In this document: positions 1-56,760 of the stretch, piece by piece | Layout: every line of letters starts with the position of its first letter | Position numbering within the stretch: the first letter of the stretch is position 1 | Source of the DNA: Elsinoe ampelina | Lineage: Eukaryota | DNA length: 64,000 nt | Direction of reading: 5' to 3' | Assembly: GCA_010093995.1 (NCBI GenBank) | Contig: ML992512.1 | Coordinates: 405,736-469,735 of the forward strand | Notes under the pieces: model-generated | Database searches by the model: none | Seen by the model: only the letters and a program-made list of their open reading frames with translations | Told to the model about the DNA's origin: nothing | Translations under genes and position numbers: made by a program

Positions 1-1062
1 ATACGATACGACCTATCTCCAAGCGCATCATCCACGACATCTGGAGAGTATGTAGATGCGATTCGTCCTGCGCCGTCCGCAAATGCGAGCCGGACATCGG
101 TAGCAAGACCTGGCACTAGTGGCGGCTTGCCAGCGCATACTCTGTCGACAAAGGCCAGCTCTCGAAGTCTACCATCCCTACGCAGACCAGAGACAAGACT
201 AGCTCAGAAAGAAGCACATCCATGGCAACACCTCGGTATCACGCTTGGCTTACCCATGATCCTCTTATTCGATCTAGCAATACCCTGCATCGTCTACTAC
301 ACATGGTACAATAGATCAGTCTCACGGTGGGAGGAAGACTGTCGGAACCAATTCCAAGACCGCCCATGTGAACTGCCGAAGCCTGAACTGGACAAGACGA
401 TCATGGGGGCCGCCGTGGCCTGCTTCGGGTTCGGAGAAATCTGGATCTTGGGAGCCAGAGTTTGGCGGCTGTTCTTTCGACAAGAAGAATGTGCACCGTT
501 ACTGTCGAGAAGCAGATGGGAATTGGACGCCACTAGCTGGGTCTACCTTGTAGCCGTGCTGATGGCTCTCATACCATTTGTCGTCGGATCCGAGCTTGTC
601 ATTCCCAAGCTGTACCTCTACGGACCAAGCTTTATCATGGTCTTTCTCGGGATACTAATGATCATATCCTTCTTTCCCTTCAGATTGCCTGTAGGCATTA
701 ATTCACAACCACGCGGGTCTCGCATGCGACCTTTCATCTACTACGCAGCCGAAGACTTTATCGCTGTAGACGGACTGCAAGACCGAGAGTTCAGAATACG
801 GTATAATGAACGATACGAAGAGAACAAGTCCTTCCGGAGATTCTTCTACTTCCTCACCGTCTGGTGGATATTGGGCGTCATGTTATATGAAGGGGCGGTC
901 TCGGCGATAATCTGGTTGTTACCCTTCCATTACGCATTTGGGGCGAGTCTCGGCGTTCTGTTTGGATGGATCGCCACATGGGCGTTATGCACTTATGGTT
1001 TTGTAGAATGGGAGATGAGGAGGGAAAATAAGGCGTACGAAGCAGCGGCTCTTGAGGCTTGA
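1..1062 (+). CDS. Uncharacterised multi-pass membrane protein (5' partial)
   Basis: The frame is open from base 1 to TGA 1060-1062, so the start lies outside the window. Six or seven hydrophobic segments and a soluble loop RPFIYYAAEDFIAVDG..FRIRYNERY that looks like a conserved fungal motif; no function assignable. Confidence 0.75.
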   Translation: MRYDLSPSASSTTSGEYVDAIRPAPSANASRTSVARPGTSGGLPAHTLSTKASSRSLPSLRRPETRLAQKEAHPWQHLGITLGLPMILLFDLAIPCIVYYTWYNRSVSRWEEDCRNQFQDRPCELPKPELDKTIMGAAVACFGFGEIWILGARVWRLFFRQEECAPLLSRSRWELDATSWVYLVAVLMALIPFVVGSELVIPKLYLYGPSFIMVFLGILMIISFFPFRLPVGINSQPRGSRMRPFIYYAAEDFIAVDGLQDREFRIRYNERYEENKSFRRFFYFLTVWWILGVMLYEGAVSAIIWLLPFHYAFGASLGVLFGWIATWALCTYGFVEWEMRRENKAYEAAALEA

Positions 1063-45221: not shown

Positions 45222-45586
45222 GGTGTGTGGGCTATATCAGTGCAACAGTGCTGTTCCGACTGAGGAGGGTAAACTTGAAGACGTAGATAATGGAGGCAGC
45301 TGATTGGTCAATGGCTTGCGGTGAGGTGACCGGAATTCCGCATGGTGCGGGACAGTGAGATACTACACAACACTGCCTAGGACCTGTGACGGTAGCATAC
45401 ACATTCGGAACATATTCATTCTTCTCTCACGTCTCATGATATCCCTTGGAGCAACATTCTGATCAATCATTCGTCCACCAGAGGGCCGATCAATACCTGG
45501 ACAGCAACCTCGGCGACCCCGCTATTCACATCCTCCATACCACATACATCCATCTAGATCAGACATTACTGCGGTTGACATTCGCG

Positions 45587-46408
45587 ATGCTGCTACTCGG
45601 CCTCACTGGCTCAATCGCGACTGGCAAATCCACAGTCTCACAGATACTGTCCTCACCACCATACTCACTCCCCATCATCGACGCCGACAAGATCGCACGA
45701 CAGGTCGTAGAACCCGGCACATCCGGCTACAATGCCATAGTCTCACACTTCTCCTCAACCACGCCAGACCTCCTCGAACCACCATCAGAAACGACAGGCG
45801 GAGAAGCAGGACCCAATGGGAAAGGCCGGCCACTCAACAGACCAGCGCTGGGTAGAAGGGTGTTTGGTCAAGGGAAAGAAGCGGACAGGAAAGTGCTGAA
45901 CGGCATTGTACATCCGGCTGTACGAAAAGAGCTGTACCGGCAGATGCTGTGGGCATACATCAAGGGATCGTGGGCGGTAGTCTTGGACATTCCGCTACTG
46001 TTCGAGAGCGGATGGGAGGCCATGTGCGGGACCATCATGGTGGTGGCTGTGAAGGACAAGGAGGTCCAGATCAAGCGATTGAAAGACAGAGATAGCCATC
46101 TCACGGATGAGGATGCGCGGAACCGGGTCGCAAGCCAATGGGACGTGCGGGACAAGGCGAGGCGTGCTGAGGCGAGAGGGAACAGAAGAGGTGTGGTGGT
46201 GTGGAATGATGGCGGAAAGGAAGATCTTAAGAGGGAAATCGACAGAGTGATGACAGAAGTGAAGAAGGGAAGTCCGCAGTGGTGGTCCTGGCTCCTCCTG
46301 GTTAACCCTGGATTCATGGTGCTGGCGGCGTCTTGGAACTATTTCTTGGGTTGGTATTCCAAAAGACAGTGGGAGCAAATGAAGGCGCGGGAGAAGGCGA
46401 AGCTTTGA
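45587..46408 (+). CDS. CAB5: Dephospho-CoA kinase
   Basis: MLLLGLTGSIATGKSTVS P-loop, IIDADKIAR, LNRPALG, IVHPAV, DIPLLFE, C-terminal TM segment. Confidence 0.93.
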   Translation: MLLLGLTGSIATGKSTVSQILSSPPYSLPIIDADKIARQVVEPGTSGYNAIVSHFSSTTPDLLEPPSETTGGEAGPNGKGRPLNRPALGRRVFGQGKEADRKVLNGIVHPAVRKELYRQMLWAYIKGSWAVVLDIPLLFESGWEAMCGTIMVVAVKDKEVQIKRLKDRDSHLTDEDARNRVASQWDVRDKARRAEARGNRRGVVVWNDGGKEDLKREIDRVMTEVKKGSPQWWSWLLLVNPGFMVLAASWNYFLGWYSKRQWEQMKAREKAKL

Positions 46409-46929
46409 GTGCTGTGCAGGAGACGCAAGTAATCCAGACTCCTGTAAGGTCAATAGGTGAAGTCATGACTATGACAAAGTCCTCGGTGCAGACCGAATCA
46501 TTGCTGCATCTGCAATCTGGAGCACTATGCAGCTACCGGATCAATAACGCCATGGCAGCGAACCTGCATGGACCGAAGACGCGATATGCGAGCGATGCCG
46601 GTAATGGATCTTCTGACTCGAGTCCAGCTTGAGTCGCGCCTCGGCTTGACACGGTCGCATGGGCTGGCGAATTGCTGGAGATAGTGCGACCACAGGCATG
46701 CTAGGAGAAATGCAATGCGAGTCACCCACAACTGTCCACGTCGGTCGTAGACGAGACTGGACAAAATGTGTCGCTCGAGATTATCGACAGTGCGACACTG
46801 GTCTTCGGCCTCTTATGACCACGACAGAGGAAGACATCCTCCAGATTATGAGGTGGACGGTGCTTCCTGTGGTTGTGAAGAAGGCACTCTAGGAGACAGG
46901 GTATATGATATTTGCTGACAGCAGATCTT

Positions 46930-47136
46930 GTTGGCCTCGTGCCACAAGTCAATTTGAAACTATACAGAGAAGATTAGCATGGTGAGTTGGCTCCGCTCTT
47001 CGACACGTCTTGGCACAACGCTAACCCTTTCAGGCCCCTGCACTAAGGATGAGTGCGTTAAACCCTTGCAACGCGCCCGAATTGTCACTGACTGTTCGCA
47101 GCACATGCAAACAAAGAGATGCTCAAAAGTTTTTTT
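46930..47136 (+). ncRNA. snu6: U6 spliceosomal snRNA containing two spliceosomal introns
   Basis: Exon 1 ..AATTTGAAACTATACAGAGAAGATTAGCATG (to 46981); intron 46982-47033; exon 2 GCCCCTGCACTAAGGATGA (47034-47052); intron 47053-47101; exon 3 CACATGCAAACAAAGAGATGCTCAAAAG plus T7. The spliced ~106 nt has the ACAGAGA box, AGC triad and ISL. The 5' end is approximate. Confidence 0.95.
47130..47136 (+). terminator. RNA pol III oligo(T) terminator of U6
   Basis: T7 run immediately after U6 exon 3. Confidence 0.85.
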
Positions 47137-47152
47137 GCACTTTTTCTTGCAC

Positions 47153-47163
47153 GGTTCGACTCT
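47153..47163 (+). promoter_or_regulatory. Downstream B box (TFIIIC site) of U6
   Basis: GGTTCGACTCT matches GGTTCGAnTCC at all but the last base, 17 nt past the terminator. An A-box-like AAGTCAATTTG lies at 46946-46956 and a TATA-like TATATGATA at 46902-46910. Confidence 0.75.
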
Positions 47164-47622
47164 TGACGGCAGCCCATAAAATCCATGTTTTTGCAACACC
47201 TCAGGTGGCACTTCCTTTTGATGGAATGCTCGCGCAAGATCATTAGACAATTTTGCTGCCATGATTTTTTTTAGTACACTGCATGCAGATAGCTTCGGAG
47301 CTCTCGCGGAAATCACGCCGCGGTGGGTCTGATAGAAGAGCCGCATTCCGTCTCCCAATTCGTGCCCAACATAGTCCATGTCAGTAATGCTCTCTTTGTA
47401 AAATGAGAGGCAATCGCGCCGTGCCGTCAACTTCATGTCGACCTTTAACCTTTCGCCAGTTCTGCTATCAATGAGCGTTATTCGCAGATACCTCCCCAGT
47501 CTAACAGCCCGCGACATCGGCCGTGAGTGAATCACATGTCAAGCTTGACACCAAGATCGTGACTATATTGCATCCTACAGGCAAATCAGTACGCAGCTAT
47601 ATTTCTTCGCTAATGCGGTACT

Positions 47623-49211
47623 ATGGAGAGGACATACCGCGTACTATCACGCCGGCGTCACGCTGTGAGGGCATATTCTACAACGACTTCAAGCACGCAA
47701 CAGGGAACAGATAGCAGTACCATCCCGCCACCATGGCGACCTGCAACCGCCCTAGATGAGTCAGGAGAACTCGTCAATCCTTGACCACACTCGCTAATGC
47801 TGTGGTACAGATGGGTAGAACGAGAAGCTCGGCCAATCAGTCTGCGCCAGCTCACAGTGTTCGGCAGAACATTGAGTGAAGGTCGATTGCTAAGTTCCGC
47901 CAACTATGTTCGACTCGAGTTACCAACACGGTATGTACTCTATGGATGAATCCGTTCATTTTGCTGATGATGGGTAGTATCGCGCATCGATTACGGAACA
48001 TGCAAACTCTACCATACTCCGCTCTTACCAACCAGCACATCTCCCATGTGCACGAGCTATACTACTCTGCCTTTGAGAAGCTCCGAAAAGTCCCAGAAGT
48101 GCGGACGCTGGCTGATAATGATCAGCTCTGTGCTGTCATTCGAGAATGCCTACATGAGCATCTTTCGGTCATACCAGCCCTGGCCATGGGTGTGCTCGAA
48201 ATCCAGTCGGCCGTGCCAGCAGATGTCTGCGACCAATTAATGCGAACCATGTTGCGATCACGAATATCTCGGAGGGTGATAGCTGAGCAACATTTGGCGC
48301 TAACAGACACATATCATTCCCCACACTCGATGCGCAGATCACAATCAGCTGGCTCTGCGCCTGACGAAGACTTTATTGGCGAGGTCTTCCTCAAGTGCAA
48401 AGCTCGCGAGATCATCGACACCTGCTCTAGCACAATCACTCGACTTGCCCGCCGAGCTCATGGCAAAGATACGCCCTTGCCCGAAGTCAAACTATTTGGT
48501 GACGTTGAAACCACCTTCCCATATATTCCCAGCCATATTGAATACATCATCGGCGAGCTTCTTCGCAACAGCACTCAAGCCATTCTCGCTCGAGCTCGTA
48601 CAAACCCGGAATCATGGACATCTACGTCTTCCTCACCCGCCACACCCTCGGGTGCCGTCCCACCCATCGAAGTGCTCATTTGCGAATCAGCACAACACAT
48701 CATTATCCGCGTATCCGACCAGGGCGGTGGTGTCGCGCGGGATGTACTTCCTTATCTCTGGAGCTTCACGACAGGACCACGCAAGGAAAAGCGCTTGAAA
48801 GATCTGGAGCAGGTCCCGCGTCTAGCAGGGACACTCCAAGAAATTGCTGTGCCGCCGAGCATACCACCGGAAGACTCTAGTATTAGCAGCATCACCGATG
48901 CTGAGACCCTGAGAAGTAGCAAGCATACGCCCGAATCTGCTCAGGATTCTACGGAGGACTCCGAAACAAGCAGAAAATCACAAAGCAGGAAAGACAGGTA
49001 CGATAACAGCTTATCGACATTCACAGCCCGACCACCAGGACTCAGACTTGGTATCGGTCTACCAATGAGCAGGATATATGCCGAGTACTGGGCTGGAAGT
49101 TTGGAATTGCATAGCTTGGAAGGATATGGCGTCGACGCTTTCTTGCAGATCAGTAAACTTGGGAACAGGAATGAGGTATTGAGTACGAGAGCTAGCATGG
49201 ATGCTGTCTGA
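47623..49211 (+). CDS. Mitochondrial alpha-ketoacid dehydrogenase kinase (PDK/BCKDK family, Pkp-like)
   Basis: ATG 47623 with presequence (..RRRHAVRAYST); introns 47760-47810 and 47931-47977. ANYVRLELPTRIAHR, RISRRVIAEQH, N box ELLRNS, DQGGG, GLGIGLPMSRIYAEYWAG. Confidence 0.9.
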
Positions 49212-53086: not shown

Positions 53087-56000
53087 TCATCTGATGTTCA
53101 GCCTCTCGTGCTGTGCCCACGTGTTCCTGTTCTTGTTGACGTGCTCCAGTCCTAGCTGATCGTCGCTCTGCATCTTCTCGCTCAGCACATCCTCATCGTC
53201 GATATAAGCTGGTTTGGCATATGCCTGACCGCCTCTGATGACTGCGAACTTGATCTTCTCGAAAGCCTTGCCCTTGATTCCAGTCCGCTTCGACAGTCGC
53301 TCCTTAGTCTCTGTGAAGATCTCTCCCTCTTTGAGCAGGAATACGAACGGAATGTTGTGCGTTTTTGAAGGATCCTTTTCGTAGTGGAAAGCCGATATTT
53401 GACGAGCAGCCGAGTCGTCTGTGATATCTGCCTCCTCCTCTGGAATGGGCTCTGCGTAGACAGTGCAGAACTCATTGATGGAAGCCACAGCGTAGGTGGG
53501 CGGGATGATGCGGTGGATTTTACCCGAGTGAGCCTCCAGGAAACGGACACGAGACAGAACGTCCTGTTCGATCGAAGCCTTTTTACCCAGTATCGGTAGC
53601 ACGTCTGAAATGGTGCCTTGCTTTGGAACAAGAATGTCATGTGGTTCCTGTTCACTGGTTAGCGGAGGCAAAAAGCAAAATGACGATTGTCACTGACCTC
53701 TTTGTTGATACCGTCTGGCAGCCAGAGCACTTTGACAATCTTGCGTTGCTCAAGGTCTGCCAAACTCATCTCCAACACCTCGTAGTATAGCGAGTCTTGC
53801 GATTGGTTTGTGTATCCATACGAAGCGTAGCCTCCAGCAGCGCCAAACAGGATGCTAGTCATGTTGACGGTTGGTGAGCGCTTGACAATGGCACGAGGAC
53901 GTTGTGACTGGACGTTGATCGTGGTGAAGCGCAGGTGGGTTGGATCAACGGGCGTGCTGGAAGCTTTTGACAAGTGCTCGGCCACTTTCACAGCCAAGTT
54001 ATCGTAGGAATCCTTCTTCGATAGGTATAGGCTGAACCTGAAATTGTCTTCTGGCTCAATATTGATGTTCTGAGGTGCTGTAGGCTTAGGTGCAAAGTGG
54101 ACTGTGATGCGGTTGAGGAGATAGTCGTAGAATGACGGGGCTTCTAGGTATGCCGATGGTGACTTCTGCTGGATCGCCTGAATCTCGTCTTCCGAGTAAT
54201 GCTTCTGGAAGCAGATGATGTCGCCGTCTTGAATCTCTGATTGCGTCAAGGTCTGCTTCGGTTTCATCGTTTCGACAAAGTTGGGCTTGATCTCCTCGAA
54301 GAGCTTGAGATTAGTCGTGCCAGCCTCCCAACCCATCATGTTGAGAATCGGTTTTGCAAGATCCGCAACCTTGTCGTTCTGATTCATGTAGACATGCCCA
54401 GCACCTTTCAGTTCCTGCTTCTCGACGTCGAAATGCTTGAGGAAGATGACGATTTGCTTCTTCTCGGCATTACCATTCACTTGAGCGTCGCTGTCCCAAG
54501 AAATTGTACCATCGGCAGACTTCTCCTTCTTCTCCAGCCAGAGCTTGAAGTATGCTTGCCGGTTTGCGTGCTTCAGTGCAGCATCCTCCAGGGTCATGTT
54601 CAGTGGTGAGATGGGCTGGTCTGGTCGCTTGGTGCCGTTCTGCCTGTTGACCACTACCCATGGTCGAAGGGTCTCCGCATCTTCACCATTCTCCTCTGCG
54701 TAGAGCTTGACAAAATCTGCGACCGTCATGGCCTTGAGCACCCGCATCGGTTTTGGCGCTGATGGATCTTCCTCGTCCTGATTCTCCCACTGAACGATAT
54801 CGAATCCTTGCCAGGCCTTGAAATTGTCGTTTGTGGCGACTTGCACATTCATGTATAGATGTGCTTCCTCTCGTTCCTTGCGCCGCTTCTCAAGAAGTGC
54901 TTTCTCCTCCGCCAGTCGTGTCGGGAGATGTTCAGGTGGTTGAATCTCGTCCGAAGCTGACAAGATCTTCTCCAATCTGGATTCTCTGATGTACACTAAC
55001 ATGTAAGCACTCATGGATCGTTTCGTCGACCAGGTCCGTGAGAACGGGTTCTGCATCTTCATGCCACCACCATTTACGTTAGGACCATAGTCGCCACCAA
55101 AGTTCTCCTCCATAGCTTCTCGCTTGGTGGCTCGCGTTACTCTGTCATCGTCAAACTTGTAGAAATCGCCTTCTTTGGTTGGCTTGATGAAAGCGTAATA
55201 GTGTCCGGCATTCATGTCTCCACTGTGTACCAGGACCCCATGGAGGTGATATACGTAAGGTTCTGACTTGTCCGCAGTCTCCGAAAGGTATGGTGCTGCA
55301 TCCCAAACCTCCGGAAACTCGTATCGATCATTGACCTTGACCATCATGTCCCGTTGGAAGTCGTACTCGAATCGCTTAAGTTGTAGGTGCAAAACTTGGG
55401 GGAAGCTCTCGAAGATGACACCCTTCTTCGCGTCTTGGAGTCCGAATCCTTCAGCATGGTATTTGTTGTCGCCTTCTAGTGTCTCAACCTCGACGTAGTT
55501 CTTGAAGCTGTCGTCTAGTGTCTTGCATCCGGAAACGTTGAGTTGGAGATCCCAAAAGTCCTCGATCCTCGATGATTCATAGTCGACATTGATACACTTC
55601 AGATACGTCTTCATCTTACCGACGAACATCTGTGCGAGGGCATTCTCCGCTTCTGTGCCTTTCATCTTCTCTTCCATCTTCTCCATCAAGATTCGGGACA
55701 ATTCCTGTACATCCTGCTGCTCGAAAATCTGCCGCGACTCCCAGCCGAAAGATTGTGTGAGCTCGGCAGTACCGACTGCGATCGGATCGGTCTGTAGACG
55801 ATAGAAGAGGCGCTGTAATGCCCAAGCGCTTGAATTCTTCGGGTCCTGCTCTTGCTCGGTGGGTATCTGGTAAACAGCTCTGCGGAATGCATTGGTGAAG
55901 TAGAGCGATTGCAGTAAGGAGTTGAGATAGCAGGTGGCTCCTTGGTTCCGCATGCCAACCATACCAGTCTCTTTTTTGGAGTCGTAGCTGCGCCGTGTTA

Positions 56001-56760
56001 GCTTCTGCGATAGCGCTGCTGGTGTGCCAAGACCTACTTATTGAAGTTGTGCCATAACACTCCTGTAGGATCTTTGATGACTCGGACGTATGCTGTGATC
56101 TTCGCCGAATCATTCTCGACCAGAGGCCTCTCCTTGTCGTCAAATTTTGTCGCAAAGATCCTATTCTTTTCGGCAAAGCGTGTGAATCCCCAATCTCCTT
56201 CCTCCACGGTGAAGCGATGGTTTGCCTCGTGGTGTAGATACATGGTCGGATCATTCGGGTTCCATAGAACCAGCATGAATTGCACACAAGCATACCAATT
56301 GTCGGGAACCTGTTCCGCTTCGAAGCCCTGCTCTAGGTAGAAACTGACAGATTCGCTCGCGTTGTTGCCTGCGGGAAAGAACAGTATTCTCCAGGGATGT
56401 CCACCAGCTTGAAAAACCGGCCCATGTGTTCTTTTCGGAAGTGTTCGCCATCCTTCAATCTCCCATGTGTGGACCTCCTCAGCTTGAATCTCGAGGTCGG
56501 GAAGTGGCGGCATCCATCTCTCTTTCATGGCGTCAAAGTCGTCAGCTCGTGGGAGCTGTTCCGCCTCGTCCATGGAGTCGTCGGGCGTTGAGATGACGGC
56601 GACGGCATCTTGCTGCTTCTCGTCATAATCGGAATCCACGAGCATGTCACTGCCAAGCTTGAAATGGGTCAGCGACCGTACTGTGCGAAGCATGGCGATG
56701 GTGGTGCAGAGATTCCTTGAGCACAGAAAAGCTCGCAGAGGCTTGACTTACTTGATCCAT
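53087..56760 (-). CDS. UBP15: Ubiquitin C-terminal hydrolase USP7/Ubp15 (MATH, UCH and Ubl domains)
   Basis: 9-nt exon 1 (MDQ); introns 56658-56751, 55988-56037 and 53648-53697. MATH DWGFTRF; Cys box GMRNQGATCYLNS; QQDVQE; His box GHYYAFI..KFDD. Confidence 0.94.

What the first reader, a model, noticed from the sequence alone, without database searches (positions are those of the whole stretch)
46900..47163. U6 snRNA gene interrupted by two spliceosomal introns in the catalytic core
Seen: U6 is recognisable only after removing two canonical mRNA-type introns, GTGAGT..GCTAAC..CAG (46982-47033, 52 nt) and GTGCGT..CTGAC..CAG (47053-47101, 49 nt). They leave a 19-nt middle exon. Intron 1 sits 3 nt after the AGC triad (AGCATG^GCCCC) and intron 2 just after the bulged metal-binding U of the ISL (AAGGATGA^CAC). 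The two introns are not similar to each other, which suggests independent gains. Established: intron-containing U6 genes are known in Schizosaccharomyces, some basidiomycete yeasts and other fungi, and are attributed to reverse splicing into the active-site RNA. Inference: this pair of positions may be lineage-specific, and the gene is easily missed by unspliced ncRNA searches. The spliceosome would have to splice its own catalytic RNA twice, from a Pol III transcript.
Basis: partly seen in the sequence, partly recalled or inferred. Interest (0 to 1): 0.8.

Follow-up and report, generated by a model that had tools for sequence, protein, structure and literature searches.

The report
Fungal U6 gene split by two introns
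This is a real gene for U6, the catalytic RNA of the splicing machinery, in a plant-pathogenic fungus, and it is itself interrupted by two ordinary introns; such split U6 genes are already known in fungi, so it is a tidy new example rather than a new phenomenon.

Summary
Window 46931-46982 (+) is the only Rfam match in the 64 kb: U6 (RF00026), model positions 1-57 of 105, 33.8 bits, ending at the proposed 5' splice site.

Two GT-AG segments interrupt the gene. One is 46982-47033 (52 nt, GTGAGT..GCTAAC..CAG). The other is 47053-47101 (49 nt, GTGCGT..ACTGAC..CAG).

Removing them in a script joins a 19-nt exon and a 35-nt exon. The joined piece matches the uninterrupted 3' part of a metagenomic fungal-like U6 (L005) at 39 of 41 positions, without a gap across the intron-2 junction.

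A TATA-like motif lies upstream, a T7 run ends the gene, and the window's only B-box match lies 17 nt further on. These fit Pol III transcription.

The window encodes a protein 100% identical to one named from Elsinoe ampelina.

Fungal U6 genes with up to four introns, clustered near the ISL and the ACAGA box, are in print (review PMC5855946). This is therefore a new member of a known kind.

Splicing, expression and uniqueness of the gene were not shown. No usable RNA data covered the locus and no genome was held.

The parts
46902..46909 (+). TATA-like upstream promoter element (TATATGAT)
   Evidence: Read. It lies 22 nt upstream of G46924 and 29 nt upstream of the Rfam model start at 46931. 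L005 and L001 also have TATA-like motifs, 23 and 30 nt upstream of their Rfam U6 starts (sequences, my counting). Function is inferred.
46924..46981 (+). U6 exon 1: 5' stem-loop, ACAGAGA box and AGC triad. The true 5' end is uncertain, somewhere in 46924-46933.
   Evidence: Rfam RF00026 matches 46931-46982, model positions 1-57 of 105, 33.8 bits. The predicted 5' hairpin extends to about 46924-46927 (fold and my reading).
46982..47033 (+). Intron 1, 52 nt, GTGAGT..GCTAAC..CAG, inserted 3 nt after the AGC triad
   Evidence: The same insertion site is occupied in L005 (69-nt intron) and in L001/L003/L004/L006/L007 (102-nt intron in L001).
47034..47052 (+). U6 exon 2, 19 nt: the apical hairpin of the internal stem-loop (ISL), including the bulged U
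   Evidence: All 19 positions are identical to the contiguous U6 of L005. It folds as the top of the ISL when flanked by exon 1 and exon 3 sequence.
47053..47101 (+). Intron 2, 49 nt, GTGCGT..ACTGAC..CAG, inserted 2 nt after the bulged U of the ISL
   Evidence: It is absent from L005, whose sequence runs uninterrupted across this junction.
47102..47136 (+). U6 exon 3: 3' strand of the lower ISL, the 3' domain and a T7 terminator (47130-47136)
   Evidence: A second T5 run lies at 47141-47145.
47153..47162 (+). B-box-like element GGTTCGACTC, 17 nt downstream of the terminator
   Evidence: It is the only match to GGTTCGANNC on either strand of the window (2.71 expected anywhere in the window). 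Its place just behind U6 on the same strand is what counts. Function is inferred by analogy with the downstream B block of yeast U6 genes (review).

Best explanation
This is a functional U6 snRNA gene of a dothideomycete fungus; by protein identity the window is Elsinoe ampelina.

Proposed mechanism:
1. RNA polymerase III transcribes the gene from a TATA-like element plus a downstream B block, as a precursor of about 210 nt that ends in a T7 run.
2. The spliceosome removes two ordinary short introns, probably one after the other, because only 19 nt separate them.
3. The product is a mature U6 of about 105-112 nt.

The two introns sit across from each other on the two strands of the ISL helix, within one base pair. 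The 19-nt middle exon is therefore exactly the apical ISL hairpin with the metal-binding bulged U.

Shown here: the gene anatomy, the U6 identity of all three exons, and the canonical splice signals. Inferred: transcription by Pol III, actual splicing, order of splicing, and origin.
For: 1. U6 identity of exon 1. It is the only Rfam match in the window with E up to 0.1: model positions 1-57 of 105, 33.8 bits, ending at the 5' splice site.

2. U6 identity of exons 2 and 3. Joined in a script, they match L005's contiguous 3' exon at 39 of 41 positions, ungapped across the intron-2 junction. They also align to the 3' exon of L001, which Rfam itself scores as U6 positions 56-105 at 21.8 bits.

3. 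The joined ISL region folds into a 10-bp stem-loop of -8.5 kcal/mol, with the expected C.A/U internal bulge.

4. The introns look like this genome's own.
- Of the 14 strict intron-like segments in the window, 10 are 46-53 nt long.
- The one segment checked against a protein is 50 nt with GTAGGT..GCTAAC..CAG. This is the USP gene, placed by tblastn with P0001, with boundaries agreeing within 2 nt.

5. Pol III features are present: a TATA-like motif, a T7 run directly at the U6 3' end, and the window's sole B-box match 17 nt further on. No T run longer than 3 occurs in either intron.

6. The gene lies in a roughly 1-kb gap between two + strand genes, a dephospho-CoA kinase and a PDK/BCKDK-type kinase.

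7. There is precedent. The sole S. pombe U6 gene has a spliceosomal intron that is spliced, and a survey found up to four introns per fungal U6 gene, clustered near the ISL and ACAGA box (review PMC5855946).
Against: - There is no RNA evidence. The one lay of public runs covered nothing between 46600 and 47406.
- On genomic DNA the gene fails Rfam's gathering score (33.8 against 44 bits; 0 hits at gathering).
- The spliced form could not be given to Infernal here.
- The 3' part alone gives no U6 match even at E up to 10.
- The rest of the genome could not be searched, so an intronless U6 elsewhere is not excluded. The review cites an average of 2.3 U6 genes per fungal genome.
- The absence of T runs is not discriminating: only 2 of the 12 other intron-like segments have a run of 4 or more T.
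- A B-box pattern is expected 2.7 times per window by chance. Only its position argues for function.
Confidence: 0.85

Rival explanations
1. It is a silent or redundant copy (pseudogene or minor paralogue). One or more intronless U6 genes elsewhere in the genome supply the cell's U6, and this locus is not expressed or not productively spliced.
For: The genome could not be searched. Fungal genomes hold 2.3 U6 genes on average and up to 20 (review citing Canzler 2016). The same review says that experimental validation of intron-containing U6 genes is still needed. No RNA evidence was obtained here.
Against: - Every conserved element is intact after joining: ACAGAGA, AGC and the ISL. Agreement with L005 is 39 of 41 positions.
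- Both introns keep consensus 5' splice site, branch and 3' splice site.
- TATA-like, terminator and B-box elements are in place.
- A decaying copy would be expected to lose some of these.
- No second U6 lies within these 64 kb.
Confidence: 0.1
2. The U6 is real, but it is made from a Pol II transcript, or is processed in some way other than two spliceosomal splicing events. Examples would be use of only one intron, or alternative splice sites that give a variant RNA.
For: Spliceosomal splicing is usually coupled to Pol II. The TATA-like motif alone does not tell polymerases apart. The transcription start was not mapped.
Against: - The T7 run sits exactly at the U6 3' end, and a B-box lies downstream.
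- The S. pombe U6 precursor is an intron-containing U6 gene with a B block (there inside the intron), and it is spliced (review).
- Only the two proposed GT-AG pairs restore a contiguous U6.
Confidence: 0.04
3. It is a chance resemblance and not a U6 gene.
For: The score lies below Rfam's gathering threshold on genomic DNA.
Against: - E is 1.2e-4 for the whole window and 6.7e-7 locally.
- There is an exact 19-mer of the U6 core, against 0.03 expected.
- The 19-nt and 35-nt pieces continue the U6 sequence exactly where canonical introns end.
Confidence: 0.01

Closest known systems
Schizosaccharomyces pombe U6 gene (snu6) with one mRNA-type intron (Tani and Ohshima 1989; known to me through the review PMC5855946; the original paper was not seen)
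   Same: It is a U6 gene with Pol III promoter elements, interrupted by a short canonical spliceosomal intron next to the AGC triad. The spliceosome must splice its own catalytic RNA.
   Different: - S. pombe has one intron; this gene has two.
- In S. pombe the B block lies inside the intron (review). Here the B-box match lies downstream of the terminator, as the review describes for S. cerevisiae.
- I could not check whether the S. pombe intron sits at the very same phosphodiester as intron 1.
Multi-intron U6 genes of fungi: Rhodotorula hasegawae (Tani and Ohshima 1991) and the survey of 145 fungal genomes by Canzler, Stadler and Hertel 2016. Both are known here only through the review's summary. 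PMC4829304 is not held.
   Same: There are several unrelated canonical introns in one U6 gene, with insertion sites concentrated near the ISL and ACAGA box. Promoter make-up is flexible (TATA, A block, downstream B block).
   Different: I could not compare my two positions with the survey's table or supplements, which may already list them for other Dothideomycetes. As far as I recall, this species was not in that survey, because its genome is more recent; this is unchecked.
Metagenomic U6 loci found here (L005; L001/L003/L004/L006/L007)
   Same: They carry an intron at exactly the intron-1 site (AGCATG | GT..AG | G). L005's exons are nearly identical to the window's.
   Different: - None of them has intron 2.
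- Their intron sequences are unrelated in length and content: 69 nt in L005 and 102 nt in L001, against 52 nt here.
- The L001 group has a divergent U6 and no clear CTRAC branch motif, and its organism is unknown.
Saccharomyces cerevisiae SNR6 (intronless U6)
   Same: It has an upstream TATA box, a T-run terminator and a B block downstream of the gene (review).
   Different: SNR6 has no introns. Its B block lies further downstream (about 120 bp, recalled, not checked) than the 17 nt seen here.

Membership tests
U6 spliceosomal RNA (Rfam RF00026) | Score at or above the Rfam gathering threshold (44 bits) | tested here: not met
   On genomic DNA there are 0 hits at gathering. The best score is 33.8 bits, for model positions 1-57 only.
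U6 spliceosomal RNA (Rfam RF00026) | 5' stem-loop, ACAGAGA box and AGC triad in the conserved order | tested here: met
   In the alignment, positions 38-57 of the model are identical (AUACAGAGAAGAUUAGCAUGG). The 5' hairpin is present.
U6 spliceosomal RNA (Rfam RF00026) | Internal stem-loop with a bulged U and C.A mismatch, followed by the 3' domain and a U tract | tested here: met
   It is met only after joining the exons in a script. The fold appears. The joined piece matches L005's contiguous 3' exon at 39 of 41 positions. T7 lies at 47130-47136.
U6 spliceosomal RNA (Rfam RF00026) | Base-pairing with the organism's U4 and U2 snRNAs | not testable with these tools
   No U4 or U2 is in the window, and no genome is held.
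U2-type (GT-AG) spliceosomal introns of filamentous ascomycetes | GTRNGT 5' site, CTRAC branch close to a YAG 3' site, and a length typical of the genome | tested here: met
   Both segments match the strict pattern. They are 52 and 49 nt, and 10 of the 14 pattern matches in the window are 46-53 nt. A protein-checked intron in the window is 50 nt.
U2-type (GT-AG) spliceosomal introns of filamentous ascomycetes | Removal from the RNA (junction reads) | not testable with these tools
No holder on record as RNA was listed.
Pol III gene with TATA box, terminator and downstream B block (yeast SNR6 type) | TATA element about 20-30 nt upstream, T run at the 3' end, and a B block (GGTTCGANNC) downstream | tested here: met
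   TATATGAT is at 46902-46909, T7 at 47130-47136, and GGTTCGACTC at 47153-47162, the sole match in the window. These are sequence matches only. The A block was not tested.
Introner-like elements (multi-copy introns of Dothideomycetes) | Many near-identical copies in the genome, and a stable predicted structure | tested here: not met
   Within the 64-kb window there is no second copy: blastn-short matches are 13 nt or shorter. Folding z-scores are +1.3 and -1.1. The rest of the genome was not searched.

The most novel reading that the evidence does not exclude
This is the only U6 gene of the fungus. Every U6 molecule would then have to be spliced twice, in sequence, across a 19-nt micro-exon that is exactly the catalytic ISL hairpin, from a Pol III precursor. 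U6 supply would in that case depend on existing spliceosome activity, which is a built-in feedback. The two insertion sites face each other across the ISL helix, so they would be paired footprints of reverse splicing at one spot of the active site. The intron-1 site would be a recurrent hotspot shared with distant lineages. The intron-2 site would be a later gain special to the Elsinoe/Myriangiales lineage that is not yet in print.
Probability: 0.3. Interest if true: 0.5.

Novelty: new member of a known kind. Interest (0 to 1): 0.3.

Why it matters
**Annotation.** A standard Rfam scan at gathering threshold finds no U6 in this window. Such genes go unannotated, and their promoters stay unavailable for guide-RNA expression. 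The fungal CRISPR literature raises this problem (PMC7827515, passage read).

**Biology.** The locus adds a clean two-intron case in a dothideomycete plant pathogen to the evidence that U6's catalytic core is a preferred target for intron insertion.

**Geometry.** The two introns bracket the apical ISL hairpin, within one base pair of each other across the helix. The intron-1 site recurs in two other, unrelated metagenomic lineages. Both points are simple and testable, and they bear on the reverse-splicing model. None of this changes the established picture.

Tried and rejected
**RNA evidence**
- The look-up of sequencing runs listed no holder on record as RNA.
All of them begin only at 47407-47426. 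Nothing lay over 46600-47406, and no joints were found.
- The tool says that contigs resembling human DNA are dropped, which may apply to U6. This is therefore no evidence either way.

**Whole genome**
- None is held, so other U6 copies could not be sought.

**Rfam on exon 2 + intron 2 + exon 3 (47030-47145)**
- No U6 match at E up to 10.
- The other weak matches (SAM-II, U7, CRISPR-DR36, Corona_pk3, FuFi-1) have E above 1, lie far below their gathering scores, and are taken as chance.

**Scoring the spliced sequence with Infernal**

**Relatives with intron 2**
- An exact-pattern scan for exon 2 followed by GT gave 0 hits in genome contigs and 0 in viral contigs.
- The intron-1 pattern also gave 0 in each.
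- These collections hold prokaryotes and viruses, so the blanks mean little.
The intron-2 pattern was therefore never run on metagenomes.

**Other checks**
- Longer context of the metagenome loci: the records are not held.
- L002 was rejected as a U6 gene. It has only a 32-nt U6-like piece at 18.6 bits in GC-rich DNA, with no 5' stem-loop or 3' part.
- Introner-like origin, and similarity between the two introns: nothing beyond chance.
- The minus-strand ORF 46960-47535 that overlaps the gene has no Pfam match and is taken as spurious.
- Earlier notes of this scan: nothing near the locus, by sequence or by words, that bears on it.

**Literature**
- Not held: Canzler 2016 (PMC4829304), Frendewey 1990 (PMC330678), Takahashi 1993 (PMC360287) and Potashkin 1989 (PMC334889).
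- Seven full-text searches were answered. None found an open paper giving U6 intron positions for Dothideomycetes or for Elsinoe. That is not proof that none exists.

Full report
**What is there**

- An exon ends at 46981 with ..ACAGAGAAGATTAGCATG.
- A 52-nt segment at 46982-47033 begins GTGAGT. It has GCTAAC with the branch A 9 nt from its end, and it ends CAG.
- A 19-nt exon follows at 47034-47052.
- A 49-nt segment at 47053-47101 begins GTGCGT. It has ACTGAC with the branch A 10 nt from its end, and it ends CAG.
- A 35-nt exon at 47102-47136 ends in seven T.

At each junction only one GT-AG placement is possible.

**Is it U6?**

At gathering threshold Rfam finds nothing in the 64 kb. With E-value reporting, the only match in the whole window with E up to 0.1 is U6 (RF00026) at 46931-46982. 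It covers model positions 1-57 of 105 and scores 33.8 bits against a gathering score of 44. E is 1.2e-4 on the window and 6.7e-7 on a 351-nt stretch. The alignment is identical to the consensus from AUACAGAGA to GCAUGG and stops at the proposed 5' splice site.

The conserved 19-mer occurs once in the window, against 0.03 expected.

The 3' part alone (47030-47145) gives no U6 match even at E up to 10. This is expected when a 49-nt insert splits 54 nt of RNA.

I could not hand a joined sequence to Infernal, so I tested the 3' part in another way. A metagenome scan for the exon-1 end followed by GTNNGT returned 7 loci.
- L005 is a fungal-like U6. Its 5' half scores 41.8 bits. It has one 69-nt intron (GTGAGT..ACTAAC..CAG) at exactly the intron-1 site and no second intron.
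- Exons 2+3 of the window, joined in a script, match L005's uninterrupted 3' exon at 39 of 41 positions, without a gap across the intron-2 junction. L005 is cut off by its contig end after 41 nt.
- The same joined piece aligns to the 3' exon of L001, which Rfam itself scores as U6 positions 56-105 at 21.8 bits. I gave 3 of the 7 loci to Rfam: L005, L001 and L002.
- Against the consensus printed, the strongly conserved run from GGCCCC to GAUGACAC differs only in the loop, by one substitution and one extra base. This is my reading by eye.

**Are the inserts introns?**

A strict pattern (GTRNGT, NCTRAC, YAG, about 40-90 nt) matches 9 places on the + strand and 5 on the - strand of the window, and two of these 14 are the U6 inserts. 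That is about one match per 9,000 positions. Two of them landing exactly on the two breaks in a U6 sequence is therefore not chance (my arithmetic).

Ten of the 14 are 46-53 nt long. The one I checked against a protein is in the USP-type hydrolase gene, placed by tblastn with P0001. It is 50 nt with GTAGGT..GCTAAC..CAG, and the boundaries agree within 2 nt. The U6 inserts therefore look like this genome's ordinary introns.

They are no more alike than shuffled controls: 112 of 1000 shuffles reach the observed score. They have no other copy in the window and no unusual predicted structure, with z-scores of +1.3 and -1.1. Within this limited test they are not introner-like elements.

**Where the introns sit**

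Folding the joined ISL region gives a 10-bp stem-loop of -8.5 kcal/mol.
- The lower stem is GCAUG/CAUGC.
- The upper stem is CCU/AGG.
- Between them lie the C.A/U internal bulge and a six-base loop.

Intron 1 lies 3 nt after the AGC triad, on the 5' strand. Intron 2 lies 2 nt after the bulged U, on the 3' strand. In the predicted helix the first base of exon 2 pairs with the first base of exon 3, so the two insertion points face each other within one base pair. The 19-nt exon is exactly the apical hairpin.

In S. cerevisiae numbering, which I recall from memory and did not check here, these sites would be 64|65 and 82|83, with the bulged U as U80.

**Transcription signals**

- A TATA-like TATATGAT lies at 46902-46909. 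It is 22 nt before G46924, where the extended 5' hairpin can begin, and 29 nt before the Rfam start.
- T7 ends the gene, and a T5 run follows at 47141-47145.
- GGTTCGACTC at 47153-47162 is the only match to the B-box pattern on either strand of the window.
- About 2.7 B-box matches are expected somewhere in the window. The probability that one falls within about 150 nt behind U6 on the right strand is roughly 0.003 (my arithmetic).
- Neither intron has a T run longer than 3. This permits Pol III read-through, but it hardly discriminates, because only 2 of the 12 other intron-like segments have a run of 4 or more T.
- The layout resembles the yeast type described in the review, with a TATA box and a downstream B block. 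It does not resemble S. pombe, where the B block lies in the intron.

**Surroundings**

- The gene lies in a roughly 1-kb gap between a dephospho-CoA kinase ORF (45446-46408, +) and a PDK/BCKDK-type kinase ORF (47946-49211, +).
- The minus-strand ORF 46960-47535 has no Pfam match.
- There are no tRNA genes in the window.
- ORF 53659-55962 (-) is 100% identical to an NCBI protein named from Elsinoe ampelina. The next relatives are Elsinoe australis and Sphaceloma murrayae at 87% and Myriangium duriaei at 80%. The window is therefore from a dothideomycete of the Myriangiales.

**What could not be shown**

- Expression and splicing. No holder on record as RNA was listed. The one lay of four runs placed contigs only from 47407 onward.
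- Uniqueness. No genome is held.
- How widely intron 2 occurs. Scans of the prokaryote and virus collections were blank, as expected.

**Comparison with what is known**

I read passages and section 14 of the review PMC5855946. It states the following:
- The sole S. pombe U6 gene has a spliced intron next to the AGC triad.
- A survey of 145 fungal genomes found unrelated canonical introns, up to four per U6 gene, concentrated near the ISL and the ACAGA box.
- Some of these introns are shared by descent and many are species-specific.
- Experimental validation is still needed.

A fungal CRISPR paper notes that fungal U6 genes often have multiple introns (PMC7827515, passage). A table in PMC9518982 lists a Trichoderma reesei U6 promoter "with 1st intron".

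The survey itself and the original papers are not held, so I could not check whether these two exact positions are already listed. Their supplements may bear on that.

**Verdict**

This is a new member of a known kind. Its modest added points are these:
- The two introns bracket the ISL hairpin across the helix.
- The intron-1 site recurs in two other lineages, L005 and the L001 group, with unrelated intron sequences.
- Standard Rfam annotation demonstrably misses the gene.

Noticed in passing
L001, L003, L004, L006, L007 (metagenome loci; U6 match at 401-424 on the minus strand in L001): Five near-identical loci from microbial-mat metagenomes carry a divergent U6 gene. It has an intron of about 102 nt (GTACGT..TTAG, no clear CTRAC branch) at exactly the intron-1 site. 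Rfam scores the two halves at 24.0 and 21.8 bits in L001. The ISL shows paired changes relative to the window (CCCCU/AGGAUG against UCUCU/AGAAUG). The organism is unknown. If it is not a fungus, a split U6 gene there would be more unusual than the one in the window.
   Followed up: partly
L001 and relatives, about 60-250 nt downstream of their U6 terminator (gene orientation): There are two or three tandem partial copies of the U6 3' end (..GGCACRCATAAHCCGAAGAGAAASGAACC followed by a T run). They follow the complete gene as if the 3' portion had been duplicated repeatedly.
   Followed up: no
L002 (match at 401-424, minus strand): A GC-rich contig holds only a 32-nt piece identical to the U6 core (ACAGAGA to GCATGG), scoring 18.6 bits, with no 5' stem-loop or 3' part. 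It is a fragment or a chance hit of the pattern, not a split U6 gene.
   Followed up: partly
window 47407-47500 and onward: Contigs from three runs guessed to be RNA all begin at 47407-47426. That is about 520 nt upstream of the PDK/BCKDK-type kinase ORF at 47946. It suggests a long 5' leader, or an upstream exon, of that + strand gene.
   Followed up: no
window 53090-56660 (-): This is a USP7/UBP15-type ubiquitin hydrolase gene (1159 aa in P0001) with at least two short introns. It is 100% identical over the long exon to a protein named from Elsinoe ampelina, which identifies the organism of the window.
   Followed up: partly
window 46960-47535 (-): A 191-aa open frame runs antisense through the whole U6 gene. 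It has no Pfam match and is probably not a gene.
   Followed up: partly
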